Assembly (NCBI RefSeq): GCF_963853765.1
Contig: NC_088859.1
Span: 49,104,001 to 49,168,000, forward strand
Origin: Magallana gigas
Taxonomy: Eukaryota
DNA length: 64,000 bases
Direction of reading: 5' to 3'
Shown here: positions 49,501 to 52,500 of the stretch, one piece after another
Position numbering within the stretch: the stretch's first letter is position 1
Layout of the letters: the number at the start of each line of letters is the position of its first letter
Made by a program: the position numbers

Positions 49501-52500
49501 TTATCTCATCAGATACAGATATTTTTCGCTGATTGACAAACACTTCCAACATTAACTTCTGGACATTAGAAAACTGTTACTGTTGTTCTGCCAAGTTACT
49601 GAGGTTGATCTATTTCTTAGCAACAGGAAATGATCATGTGTGAAGTCAAAACAGGTTCACATCGTCACAATTCTTCATAAAACTGTATAGTTTTCTCTGG
49701 TTTTGAAATTGTTTCTTTGATTTCCTCCTCATGATGATTTTTTTTTTATAAAACTGCAATACTGGCAAGGCTTTAATGTCTAATCCATGGTCTATAGTGG
49801 ACTTTAAAACTCTCTTCTGTTAACATACTGTCTCCACTCCCATCTTGTGTTGATTTAATCCCTGGACACCATCAGGTCACCTAAACCACTTCCATTTATC
49901 CTTTTTCGGTGATGTTACGTTCCTCCTCTGTGTTTCCAGAGTTATTCTTCATACACCTTGTTGCATATGTTCTTAATTTTCTCAGTATAAGTGTTCTTTA
50001 GGTCCTCGGCCTATATCTTCTTCAGTTTCTCTGTATAAGTTCCCCTGTATAAATGTTCTACAGTTCCTCTGTATAAATGTTCTTCAGCTCCTCGGTATAA
50101 ATGTTCTTCAGTTCCTCTGTATAAATGTTCTTCAGTTCCTCTGTATAAATGTTCTTCAGTTCCTCTGTATAAATGTTCTTCAGTTCCTCTGTATAAATGT
50201 TCTTCAGTTCCTCTGTATAAGTTTCTCTGTATAAATGTTCTTCAGTTCCTCTGTATAAATGTTCTTCAGTTCTTCAGTATAGACCTTCTTCATTTCCTCT
50301 GTATAAATGTTCTTCAGTTCCTCTGTATAAATGTTCTTCAGTTTACCTTCTTAGATGTTCTTCAGTTCCTTGGTATAAATGTTCTTCAGTTCATCTGTAT
50401 AAACGTTCTTAGTGTTGCACATGAAGAGTGGATCACCAAGTTTTCTTTAACAATCCAAAGCTATCCTCTTGGATCCGTACAGCAGAATTGTTTTAAACTG
50501 TTTTCTTTTCTTCAAAGTCACTAGCTCATGTTCAGTTTGACTGTTTTTCTCGTTATGACTGAATGACGGCTTATCTGTGTAATCTTCTCATAAATCCCAT
50601 AAACTTCTCCCCCAAAACGTGATAATAAGTTGGTGATGAAGTTTGTTTTATTTGGTTGATGTCCATCTTCTCTCTTAATGTCCAAGCTTTCCAATTCATT
50701 AGTTTCTCTTCCGAGTTTATTCATAAGTAAGAGTAGATAGATAAACCTTGTTTGTAAACAGTCATCCATTTGGAGTATTCAAGACGAAGACTATTTCACT
50801 TGATTGTCGTTTACGCACGTATAGAACAATAAATTCCCCAATTTTCAAATAAGATTTGTTTCTTTGCATTGTTCTTACACAAAAATGTCAAAAAGCATGC
50901 AAATATATTTTCAGAAATATATTCAACTCTAAATATCAAAAAATAAACATTGTTTACTTTTGATGTAGAGATGTCCACATTTACTGAGAGGCCTATTAAT
51001 ATCTGTTGGCATCTTCAAATGTTTCATACTCTATACACATGCTTTTCATGTTTCTTTTTTAATAATGAAGATGCATTGAAAGAACTTTTAAATTAAAATT
51101 TCTTTAAATGAAATGAATAGCTGGGGTTTTTTTTCCTACCTTCACTGTCTTCCTCAAAATATTCACTCTCTGTGTTATCTTCCATCTCCAGTCCATCTTC
51201 CCCACCGATCAAATCACTGTAACTCTCCTCATCATCCACCTACATCAATTGATATTGACAAAGAATGAGTTATCTTAACAAGGCCAGGACATTTTTAGAA
51301 AAACCTTATTGGAGACAGTCCAAAGATTATGCGAAGGCACAATCTTAGCTAGCCGGTAAGTTAAATCTCACAAAGATTAAACAAAGTTAACATAGGTACA
51401 AACATTCAGCAAGCCTACGGATTATTTTTTTCTGGTGCAATCATTTACAGAAGAAGACAATTGACAAGGATCTGCCGGTTTTGTTAGACAAAACAATGAC
51501 CATATTTACACTATTAAGTTACAAAAATTCTTCAGTCTAATATTTAAAAAAAAAATGAAATGGTAAATCACCTCAATGACATCAAGGAGGAGAAGATCCT
51601 CGGGTTTATCCATTTTTTTCTATTTCTTCCACCTGAAAAAAAGAACATTTTGTAGATAAAATGACTAGTATATATAAATGTATATACAAGTATGCATACT
51701 ACCCAGCATTGTCAGTAAAAGTACTTAAAATCATGGTTTGCAACAACACAAAGATGACAACCCAGCAGAGACTCTATTCTATTTTGAGAAGCTTGACCAA
51801 TTCATTTATTTTTTATCAGGCTCATTGTTCCTCTGTACAATGAAACTATAAAGGTGCCATAAGATTTAGTCTTAAAATTAAATTGACTTTTCTTTCAAAT
51901 TATCTTTTCTCAAATTCCCTAAAACTTTTGTCACTTCATTCACTCTTAAATATACTCTAGATCATCTTATATCAGCGTAGAGACAGTTATATATAGATAA
52001 ACAGTCAAAAGATAAAAAGTATTGGTTGGCAAAATTCTGACACCGGTGCTATCATACAAGTAATTTTTTTCTGCAATACCAAATCATTTTCCAGATGAAC
52101 AGCAAATAAAGCACTTAATTGTTGAATATGGGTTTCTTTCAAGATGAATGTAATATATTTGTCACAGGTAGTAGATGTTTCAAACATTGACTGTACAGAG
52201 TGTTGTAATTATAACATACACTAATTGAACTTGAACAGGTCCAGTACAATCACTAGATTTAGCTACGTAGCTTGAATTACCCACATAGCTTTATTTACCT
52301 ACCTGAAGTAGGTTTATTTAGCTACTCTTATGAATAATATGATACAAGTATTCTGCATTTTACAGAAAAAAGTCAAAAGAAACTGTCAACATATATTTGT
52401 ACTGTGTACTTTTAAAAATTCAACCAAGGGCAAAAATTTAAAACATCACTGGTTTTGAGCAGTTTTAATCAAAACATGCATTTCTGTTGTTCGAGTTACT

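What the first reader, a model, noticed from the sequence alone, without database searches (positions are those of the whole stretch)
51572..51632. The paralog appears to have lost the SAP DNA-binding domain through a frame break just upstream of a new ATG
Seen: the first coding exon has an in-frame TAG two codons before a good-context ATG (AAAATGG; MDKPEDLLLLDVIE). Read from the exon start, a different frame gives VEEIEKNG-stop, reminiscent of the acidic segment that follows the SAP helix in SAFB. No SAP-like exon was seen between 51633 and 56100. Inference: an RRM-only SAFB lacking matrix/DNA anchoring, which could act as a competitor or a purely RNA-level factor. Caveat: the call depends on the length of a 7-nt A run.
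Basis: partly seen in the sequence, partly recalled or inferred. Interest (0 to 1): 0.65.

Follow-up and report, generated by a model that had tools for sequence, protein, structure and literature searches.

The report
SAFB-like gene copy without SAP domain
A diverged second copy of a SAFB-type nuclear RNA/DNA-binding gene in a mollusc-like genome starts its protein after the point where the DNA-binding SAP domain should be, an ordinary kind of domain loss after gene duplication that still needs transcript data to confirm.

Summary
The sequence is as described. On the minus strand, 51632..51572 is a 61-nt exon with good splice sites. One frame reads VEEIEKNG then stops. The second has TAG two codons before ATG 51613-51611. 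The third closes ten codons into the next exon. Only that ATG opens the frame shared with the downstream SAFB-like exons.

The window holds two tandem SAFB-like genes. The closest named relatives are mollusc proteins.

No SAP sequence lies between the two genes or anywhere in the window:
- Pfam matched 0 of 91 ORFs.
- tblastn with six mollusc proteins found nothing.
- A mollusc N-terminal HMM scored E=3 at best, while 5 of 5 leave-one-out controls scored 1e-28 or better.

The copy is not RRM-only. It keeps the RRM, a K-rich region, an E/R-rich region and long open exons. Its RRM exon is 85-88% identical to unnamed fragments elsewhere, against about 50% to canonical SAFB.

The frame break as the origin of the loss is only moderately supported. 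Absence of SAP does not depend on the A-run. No transcript evidence or orthologous 5' ends could be obtained.

The parts
51572..51632 (-). The finding exon (61 nt): predicted first coding exon of the diverged SAFB-like copy. The first 19 nt after the acceptor are non-coding or ex-coding, followed by ATG and 13 codons.
   Evidence: Splice sites read directly. Three-frame translations. No transcript evidence.
51611..51613 (-). Predicted start codon ATG in context AAAATGG. It opens MDKPEDLLLLDVIE.
   Evidence: In phase with exons 51239.. and 48944... That A at -3 and G at +4 make a good context is recalled knowledge.
51620..51622 (-). TAG in the ATG frame, two codons upstream of the ATG.
51606..51608 (-). 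TAA closing the frame that starts at the acceptor (VEEIEKNG*).
51613..51619 (-). Run of 7 A. With 6 A the acceptor frame and the ATG frame would be one open frame (VEEIEK+MDKPED...).
   Evidence: arithmetic by hand. Elsewhere in 7290 nt of confident coding sequence in the window, 7 homopolymers of 6 or more (3 of 7 or more) break no frame.
51140..51239 (-). Second coding exon, acidic (E 30%, D 18%). Phase 0 in, phase 1 out.
   Evidence: Weak similarity to the acidic region of unionid SAFB-like proteins: P0068 residues 183-219 at E=0.48 and P0066 residues 178-203 at E=1.1.
48169..48944 (-). Large S/K/G-rich exon with the conserved LDVYVDDTQDDLDADI block. The 3' end (donor) is not resolved.
   Evidence: tblastx to sister exon 62454-62230. 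tblastn with P0011 at E=3e-11.
43871..43956 (-). RRM exon 1 (..NLWVSGINSSTRANDLKALFNKHVK).
   Evidence: 19 of 26 identical to the sister copy; 21 of 26 to scallop P0011.
40063..40218 (-). RRM exon 2 (VVAAKIMTNARSPDSSCFGYIILSS...TFDK).
   Evidence: Pfam RRM_1 at 29.3 bits, cut-off 20.7. 40 of 47 identical to unnamed fragment P0125. 50% identical to canonical SAFB.
38969..39611 (-). K-rich exons (K 20-24%), including a 42-nt x 5 coding repeat. Approximate limits.
36999..38615 (-). E/R-rich (coiled-coil-like) exons. Approximate limits, introns included.
   Evidence: E 33%, R 26% in 36999-37373. tblastn to the E/R region of P0011 and P0066 at E down to 3.5e-15.
35099..36481 (-). Long 3' exons: an open stretch of 297 codons rich in S/R/G/N/D and one of 146 codons rich in P/G/S/Q. 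No match to the canonical C-terminal motif.
51633..56689 (-). Interval between the sister copy's stop codon and the finding exon. No SAP-coding sequence. Contains inverted-repeat pairs at 52254-52901 and 52915-53519.
56068..56089 (-). Promoter-like motif pair: TGACGTCA (56068-56075) and AAATGGCGG (56081-56089). Possible own promoter of the diverged copy.
   Evidence: (5 TGACGTCA in the window against 0.25 expected). The labels (cAMP-response-element-like, YY1-like) are recalled. Function is inferred.
56690..63571 (-). Canonical sister copy. Its first exon seen in the window is 63571..63454, its stop TGA is 56692-56690 and AATAAA is 56521-56516. Its 5' exons, where SAP is expected, lie beyond 64000.
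   Evidence: RRM exon 2 is 94% identical to scallop and abalone proteins.

Best explanation
The window carries two SAFB-like genes in tandem on the minus strand. One is a conserved copy (63571..56690 here, with its 5' end off the window). The other is a strongly diverged copy downstream (51632..about 35099).

The diverged copy most likely has its own promoter near 56.07 kb and a non-coding first exon. It then splices into exon 51632..51572 and starts translation at ATG 51613. Its protein therefore begins in the acidic region that in canonical mollusc SAFB proteins follows the N-terminal SAP domain and a basic linker. It lacks SAP but keeps the rest of the architecture: RRM, K-rich region, E/R-rich region and a long low-complexity tail.

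Inferred function: a nuclear RNA-bound SAFB-type factor that cannot bind double-stranded scaffold/matrix-attachment DNA directly. It could work alongside or against the canonical copy on shared RNA or protein partners.

Origin is less certain. The 19-22 nt before the ATG look like former coding sequence, now out of frame. That points to a small indel next to the A-run that cut the old N-terminus off. A duplication that never included the SAP exons is an equally workable origin.

Shown: the sequence features, closure of all upstream frames, absence of SAP, retention of the RRM, and the existence of closer relatives of this copy.
Inferred: the promoter, use of this exon and this ATG, and the function.
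For: 1. Frames: all three frames entering the exon are closed, and only ATG 51613 opens the frame continuous with exons 51239.. and 48944...

2. No SAP:
- Pfam hmmscan of all 91 minus-strand stop-to-stop ORFs of 20 aa or more in 51560-56720 gave 0 of 91 with PF02037.
- tblastn with six named mollusc SAFB-like proteins, five of which carry SAP, gave a best N-terminal HSP of E=0.82. That HSP lies in an E/R-rich exon of the sister copy. The best HSP inside 51633-56700 was E=27.
- An HMM of the five mollusc N-termini against 3931 six-frame peptides gave a best hit of E=3. All 5 of 5 left-out N-termini were recovered at 1.5e-28 to 3.3e-36.

3. The copy is a coding gene:
- Open exons of 258-297 codons, where the stop-codon frequency on this strand is 0.064 per codon.
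- RRM exon 2 scores 29.3 bits for RRM_1, against 29.7 for the canonical copy.
- Unnamed fragments P0125 and P0126 (88%) and P0123 (71%) match it far better than canonical SAFB does (about 50%) and share its derived residues.

4. Own promoter: TGACGTCA plus AAATGGCGG lie 600-620 nt downstream of the sister copy's stop. TGACGTCA occurs 5 times in the window against 0.25 expected.

5. Ex-coding 5' end: 16 of 22 matches to the start of sister exon 63571, with both exons in phase 0. Among real coding 22-mers, 5 of 7098 do as well. Among shuffles, 68 of 5000 do. MAFFT places an 11-nt gap next to the A-run.

6. An engineered SAP-less Drosophila SAF-B still reaches the nucleus and transcribed chromatin in an RNA-dependent way (passages of PMC2857882).
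Against: - No transcript, 5'-end or peptide evidence exists. The exon, its use and the ATG are predictions.
- The frame break sits at a 7-A homopolymer. One A fewer would give a single open frame across the exon.
- A free local alignment of the two exons is not significant: 165 of 2000 shuffles and 42 of 317 real coding 61-mers score as high. The 'ex-coding' reading therefore rests on position, not on score.
- A very diverged SAP, or one split over short exons, could escape all three searches.
- The sister copy's own SAP exons are off the window, so a SAP-bearing parent is assumed from relatives. In one search, 5 of the 6 fetched mollusc proteins have PF02037.
- The junction between exon 48944.. 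and RRM exon 1 could not be resolved, so the gene model is incomplete.
- Two searches with variable exons found no relatives.
- No orthologous 5' end could be examined.
Confidence: 0.6

Rival explanations
1. Homopolymer error. The true run is 6 A and the whole exon is coding (VEEIEK-MDKPED...). The protein's N-terminus then comes from upstream exons. These could be an undetected non-SAP exon in the 5-kb interval. Or they could be the sister copy's 5' exons, including SAP, joined by a long read-through splice that skips the sister gene body.
For: - Removing one A fuses the two frames exactly (by hand).
- The acceptor-frame segment resembles the sister copy's coding start.
- Sister exon 63571 also starts in phase 0, so the exon before it would fit this acceptor too.
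Against: - No SAP or other SAFB N-terminal coding was found in the interval.
- 7 of 7 homopolymers of 6 or more in 7290 nt of confident coding sequence leave their frames intact (a small sample).
- An ATG in good context sits exactly at the break.
- The sister copy has its own stop and AATAAA, and promoter-like motifs follow it.
- Skipping a whole 7-kb gene body would be unusual (own knowledge).
Confidence: 0.1
2. Truncated duplication. The tandem duplication started inside the intron upstream of this exon, so the new copy never had SAP exons. The bases before the ATG are simply 5' UTR, and the 'frame break' is a by-product or a chance resemblance. The present-day product is the same SAP-less protein.
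For: - No trace of any N-terminal SAFB coding sequence upstream.
- No non-coding similarity between the two loci that would show a longer duplicated segment: best blastn E=0.016 over 52 nt.
- The exon-to-exon local alignment is not significant.
Against: - The position-specific match of the exon start to the sister exon start, with equal phase, shows the acceptor and exon start were duplicated. A truncated duplication would still allow that.
- The duplication is too old for breakpoints to be seen, so this cannot be separated from later loss.
Confidence: 0.25
3. Decaying pseudogene. The copy is no longer functional and the frame break is one of its lesions.
For: - High divergence: RRM exon 2 is 48-50% identical to canonical.
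- Repeat expansions inside exons and introns.
- One exon junction could not be resolved.
- No named relatives for its variable exon.
Against: - Open stretches of 146 to 297 codons at a stop frequency of 0.064 per codon.
- RRM exon 2 is 85-88% identical, with the same derived residues, in fragments from other assemblies.
Confidence: 0.05

Closest known systems
Canonical mollusc SAFB-like proteins, e.g. P0011 'scaffold attachment factor B2-like isoform X4 [Mizuhopecten yessoensis]' and P0066/P0068 (unionid 'SAFB-like transcription modulator')
   Same: Same order of regions after the N-terminus: acidic region, the LDV(H/Y)VDDTQ(N/D)DLDAD block, RRM, K-rich region and E/R-rich region. The diverged copy also lies next to a canonical copy.
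   Different: - No SAP and no basic linker. In the relatives SAP occupies about residues 8-45.
- RRM exon 2 is only 46-50% identical.
- The S-rich and K-rich parts are expanded by repeats.
- The tail is different and lacks the RFDAYK..RRY end that the sister copy and the bivalve proteins share.
Vertebrate SAFB family (SAFB1, SAFB2, SLTM)
   Same: A family of paralogues with SAP + RRM + E/R-rich architecture (passages of PMC9958909). The sister copy's RRM exon is 84-94% identical to vertebrate members.
   Different: All three vertebrate members are described with a SAP domain. The duplication here is an independent, lineage-specific tandem one. That SAFB1 and SAFB2 lie head to head in mammals is recalled, not checked here.
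Engineered SAP-less Drosophila SAF-B (PMC2857882)
   Same: A SAFB protein without its N-terminal SAP domain. It still localises to the nucleus, to transcribed chromatin and to the DNase-resistant matrix, and its chromosome binding is RNase-sensitive (passages). This is the best available model for how the natural copy would behave.
   Different: It is a laboratory deletion in a single-copy gene. The copy here is natural, diverged and coexists with an intact-looking sister gene.

Membership tests
SAFB family (criteria as listed in PMC2857882, passage: SAP, RRM, K-rich, R/E-rich, G-rich) | N-terminal SAP DNA-binding domain (PF02037) | tested here: not met
   0 of 91 upstream minus-strand ORFs match PF02037. 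tblastn best E=0.82 elsewhere and E=27 inside the interval. HMM best E=3, with 5 of 5 positive controls at 1.5e-28 or better. All upstream frames are closed.
SAFB family | RNA recognition motif | tested here: met
   Exon 2 alone scores RRM_1 7.9e-07 at 29.3 bits, cut-off 20.7. Exon 1 is 19 of 26 identical to the sister copy. The aromatic positions of the SCFGYIIL and LWVSGI motifs are kept (read directly; the RNP1/RNP2 labels are recalled). The two exons were not joined.
SAFB family | K-rich region after the RRM | tested here: met
   K 20% (39402-39611) and K 24% (38969-39268).
SAFB family | R/E-rich region | tested here: met
   E 33% and R 26% in 36999-37373. tblastn to the E/R regions of P0011 and P0066 at E 3.7e-14 and 3.5e-15.
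SAFB family | G-rich C-terminal region and conserved C-terminal end | tested here: inconclusive
   G is only 9-12% in the last two long exons, which are rich in S/R/N/D and in P/Q. There is no match to the RFDAYK..RRY end that the sister copy shares with bivalve proteins.
SAFB family | Descent from a SAFB gene (paralogy) | tested here: met
   Collinear tblastx matches to the neighbouring canonical copy in the N-terminal block, both RRM exons and the E/R region. Same exon phases at the RRM exon junction.

The most novel reading that the evidence does not exclude
A lineage of molluscs keeps, under selection, a natural SAP-less SAFB paralogue next to the canonical gene. It would be an RNA-tethered partner or antagonist that separates the RNA-level work of SAFB from DNA/matrix anchoring.

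Inclusion of its RRM may further be tuned by an array of about 50 tandem copies of the RRM exon's own 3' splice site in the preceding intron (41237-43242).
Probability: 0.2. Interest if true: 0.5.

Novelty: new variant of a known kind. Interest (0 to 1): 0.33.

Why it matters
SAFB proteins are defined by pairing a DNA-binding SAP domain with an RRM. How much of their function needs the DNA contact is still argued from engineered deletions (passages of PMC2857882).

A natural, conserved paralogue without SAP would be an evolutionary experiment on that question. It would also be a handle for separating RNA-level from chromatin-level roles. For annotation, it warns that the short first coding exon and the homopolymer make this gene easy to mis-model.

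In itself, domain loss after tandem duplication is common, so the surprise is modest.

In the held paper library I found no report of a natural SAP-less SAFB paralogue. One search ('safb' + 'lacking the sap domain') found 1 paper, the engineered fly deletion. In one search none of the 12 listed papers mentions SAFB. These searches are narrow, and supplements were not available.

Tried and rejected
1. Six-frame Pfam scan by whole-region references. It failed because translations with stops are not accepted. It was replaced by 91 stop-free ORFs passed as an alignment.

2. Word-based protein search with the diverged copy's large exon and with the sister copy's variable N-terminal exon, both in the 'longer' length class only. 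No hit at E<=0.001 in either.

3. Non-coding similarity between the two loci, to find a duplication boundary. Nothing was found: best hit 52 nt at 69%, E=0.016.

4. The best hit of the mollusc N-terminal HMM in the whole window is the antisense reading of the finding exon itself (51580-51633 plus strand, GEDPRVYPFF against the post-SAP GEDPNEYVFE of relatives; E=3, E=20). It was rejected as chance. It is not significant, it is on the wrong strand, and it is 18 codons between stops.

5. Free local alignment of the two exons: not significant.

6. 'MAEI' at 56087 as a start of the copy: closed after four codons.

7. No complex prediction, structure prediction or atlas search was run. The RRM is split over two exons that were not to be joined. 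No binding claim is made that such a job would decide.

8. Spliced models were searched exon by exon only.

No eukaryotic genome collection was at hand, so orthologous loci stayed unchecked.
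Full report
**What the window is.** The window has no N and 29-39% G+C. On the minus strand it carries two SAFB-like genes in tandem.

The upstream, conserved copy is seen from exon 63571..63454 down to its stop TGA at 56692-56690, with AATAAA at 56521-56516. Its RRM exon 2 is 94% identical to named scallop and abalone proteins and 84-94% to vertebrate SAFB proteins. That search returned 1308 proteins at E<=1e-5 among 1316 candidates, of which 120 were listed. Its C-terminal end..EPRFDAYK..FRRY, is shared with the bivalve proteins P0011, P0066 and P0068. 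I therefore take the DNA for a mollusc, probably a bivalve, and not for human. The 5' exons of this copy lie beyond 64000.

The downstream copy runs from 51632 to about 35099 and is strongly diverged. Against the sister copy, RRM exon 1 is 19 of 26 identical and RRM exon 2 is 25 of 52 identical in an alignment that includes four flanking non-exon positions. The block LDVYVDDTQDDLDADI matches LDVHVDDTQNDLDSDI.

**The observation.** It is correct in every detail.
- The exon 51632..51572 (61 nt) follows a pyrimidine-rich acceptor (ttctttttttcag) and ends at GAG|gtgatt.
- Frame 1 from the acceptor reads VEEIEKNG and stops at TAA 51608-51606.
- Frame 2 has TAG at 51622-51620, two codons before ATG 51613-51611 (context AAAATGG), and then reads MDKPEDLLLLDVIE to the donor.
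- Frame 3 is open in the exon but reaches TGA ten codons into the next exon (phase arithmetic by hand).

The ATG frame ends in phase 0 and continues into exon 51239..51140 (VDDEESYSDLIGGEDGLEMEDNTESEYFEEDSE, ending in phase 1). From there it continues into the large exon starting at 48944, whose first codon is completed in phase 1. So nothing translated upstream can be in frame with the SAFB-like body through this exon. Only ATG 51613 opens it.

**Is there a SAP exon?** There is none. Three independent searches agree.
1. Pfam. All 91 minus-strand stop-to-stop ORFs of 20 aa or more in 51560-56720 were scanned. 0 of 91 matched PF02037. Five unrelated families appeared at E 0.016 to 6.2.
2. tblastn with six named mollusc SAFB-like proteins. 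Five of them carry PF02037 in the precomputed column. P0008, flagged 'LOW QUALITY', does not. Among 156 HSPs that start in the first 45 residues, the best is E=0.82 and lies in an E/R-rich exon of the sister copy. Inside 51633-56700 the best of 1534 HSPs is E=27, and none of the top 14 shown involves the SAP segment.
3. An HMM of the first 62 residues of the five SAP-bearing proteins, run against 3931 six-frame peptides of 10 aa or more from the whole window. The best hit is E=3 (5.7 bits). In leave-one-out controls, 5 of 5 left-out N-termini were recovered at 1.5e-28 to 3.3e-36.

Limits remain. A SAP as diverged as this copy's RRM, or one cut into short exons, could score poorly. The sister copy's own SAP could not serve as a control because it lies off the window.

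**Is the diverged copy a live gene?** Probably.
- The stop-codon frequency on this strand is 0.064 per codon. Yet the copy has open exonic stretches of 258, 297, 125 and 146 codons.
- Its RRM exon 2 alone scores 29.3 bits for RRM_1 (cut-off 20.7), the same as the canonical copy's 29.7.
- An exhaustive HMMER search with that exon found 463 proteins at E<=0.001, of which 150 were listed. Three unnamed ORF fragments are much closer to it than canonical SAFB is: P0125 and P0126 at 88% and P0123 at 71%, against about 50%.
- P0125 is 40 of 47 identical to the diverged copy but 22 of 43 identical to the sister copy. It shares the derived SCFGYIILSS motif.
- These fragments come from short unnamed contigs: 8 sequences in 3 clusters, none with a name. 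They run from an internal Met into the intron, so they say nothing about the N-terminus.
- They do show that this copy's lineage exists elsewhere and that its RRM is conserved.

The copy is not 'RRM-only'. After the acidic start come an S/K/G-rich exon, the RRM, K-rich exons (K 20-24%), E/R-rich exons (E 33%, R 26%) and a long tail. That is the SAFB architecture as listed in PMC2857882 (passage), minus SAP. The G-rich end is doubtful.

**Promoter.** About 600-620 nt downstream of the sister copy's stop lie TGACGTCA (56068-56075) and AAATGGCGG (56081-56089). TGACGTCA occurs 5 times in the window against 0.25 expected (0 of 100 shuffles reach 5). At least one other site, 8048, lies upstream of another minus-strand ORF. 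AAATGGCGG occurs once, and 28 of 100 shuffles have at least one. I read this as a likely own promoter with a non-coding first exon. The motif names are recalled and the function is inferred.

**Frame break or truncated duplication?** Several results bear on this, and they do not all point the same way.
- The first 22 nt of the exon match the sister exon 63571.. at 16 of 22 positions, at offset +3 nt. Both exons start in phase 0.
- Window-wide, only 4 other positions on both strands reach 16 of 22.
- Within 8 nt either side of the sister exon's start, 5 of 7098 real coding 22-mers reach 16. Among 22-mers from SAFB-like exons, 3 of 3770 do. Among shuffles of the 22-mer itself, 68 of 5000 do.
- Against this, a free local alignment of the two exons scores 18. 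That is reached by 165 of 2000 shuffles and by 42 of 317 real coding 61-mers.
- MAFFT aligns the two exons with an 11-nt gap directly after the A-run. It puts the ATG opposite a GTG codon of the sister exon.

Because the gap abuts the A-run, its length (11 nt, or an in-frame 12) depends on whether the run is 7 or 6 A. No non-coding similarity survives between the loci. So a duplication that never included the SAP exons cannot be told apart from later loss.

**The homopolymer caveat.** With 6 A the exon would be one open frame. That would call for upstream coding exons, but it would not bring SAP back, since none is present in the interval. The only route to a SAP-bearing product would be a splice from the sister copy's off-window 5' exons across the whole sister gene. 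The phases would allow it. The sister copy's own stop, its poly(A) signal and the promoter-like motifs speak against it. In 7290 nt of confident coding sequence in the window, 7 homopolymers of 6 or more (3 of 7 or more) leave frames intact. This is a small sample that mildly favours the assembly.

**Mechanism.** The most likely product is a nuclear SAFB-type protein that binds RNA through its RRM and keeps the E/R-rich region, but cannot contact double-stranded DNA through SAP.
- The SAP domain of human SAFB2 binds double-stranded DNA with micromolar affinity, and the RRM binds RNA (passages of PMC9958909).
- A SAP-less Drosophila SAF-B still enters the nucleus, is recruited to heat-shock puffs and stays in the DNase-resistant matrix. 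Its chromosome binding is lost on RNase treatment (passages of PMC2857882).
- By analogy, the natural copy should act at the RNA level. Whether it competes with or cooperates with the canonical copy is open.

**What was left out.**
- All searches were made exon by exon.
- Orthologous genomic loci could not be examined.
- Paper supplements were closed.
- The junction between exon 48944.. and RRM exon 1 (43956..43871), and several 3' exon limits, are unresolved.

**Verdict.** The loss of SAP is well supported at the DNA level. The proposed route, a frame break at a new ATG, is plausible but unproven, and the functional reading is inference. This is a new variant of a known family, of modest interest.

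Noticed in passing
41237-43242 (intron upstream of RRM exon 2 of the diverged copy): A 41-nt unit repeated about 50 times. Its reverse complement equals the last ~13 nt of that intron, including the acceptor ..cttgttgtag, plus the first ~28 nt of the exon. That makes about 50 tandem copies of the exon's own 3' splice site, which are possible decoy acceptors. ORFs in the array read ..VIILAATTYNKTDWS on the plus strand.
   Followed up: partly
39045-39253: A 42-nt x 5 tandem repeat inside a coding K-rich exon of the diverged copy (EKGSKIISLKSKSN units). This is an in-frame repeat expansion.
   Followed up: partly
49967-50410 and 45584-45863: Intronic minisatellites in the diverged copy: 24-nt x 16 and 39-nt x 6.6.
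   Followed up: no
576, 1622, 1644, 8048, 56068: The palindrome TGACGTCA occurs 5 times against 0.25 expected (0 of 100 shuffles reach 5). The sites at 8048 and 56068 lie upstream of minus-strand genes, which suggests a common promoter element in this genome.
   Followed up: partly
51580-51633 plus strand: The antisense reading of the finding exon (..QGGEDPRVYPFFSISST) is the top, non-significant hit (E=3) of the mollusc SAFB N-terminal HMM. It resembles the GEDPNEYVFE motif that follows SAP in relatives. Taken as chance.
   Followed up: partly
29589-30851 and 25263-25535, minus strand: A sorting-nexin-like gene downstream of the SAFB pair: PXA domain at 5.1e-22, and a weak PX match at 0.0055, below the cut-off.
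   Followed up: partly
4516-6624, minus strand: An uninterrupted 702-codon ORF with no Pfam match at E<=0.01. Its nature is unknown.
   Followed up: partly
14755-19268, plus strand: About 4.5 kb of strongly skewed (GC skew down to -0.60) repetitive sequence. It has long open frames of a recurring ..KQGYIPKPHQNKDTFPNPIKTRIHSQTPS.. unit. It could be a satellite or a repeat-protein gene.
   Followed up: no
52254-52901 and 52915-53519: Two pairs of inverted repeats (78 nt at 85% and 90 nt at 87%) in the interval upstream of the finding exon. They look like small inverted-repeat transposon remnants.
   Followed up: no
61566-61600, minus strand: The sister copy has a 35-nt micro-exon ([11 protein letters not shown]) between its large N-terminal exon and RRM exon 1. 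No counterpart was located in the diverged copy. This may be why the junction into its RRM exon 1 could not be resolved.
   Followed up: no
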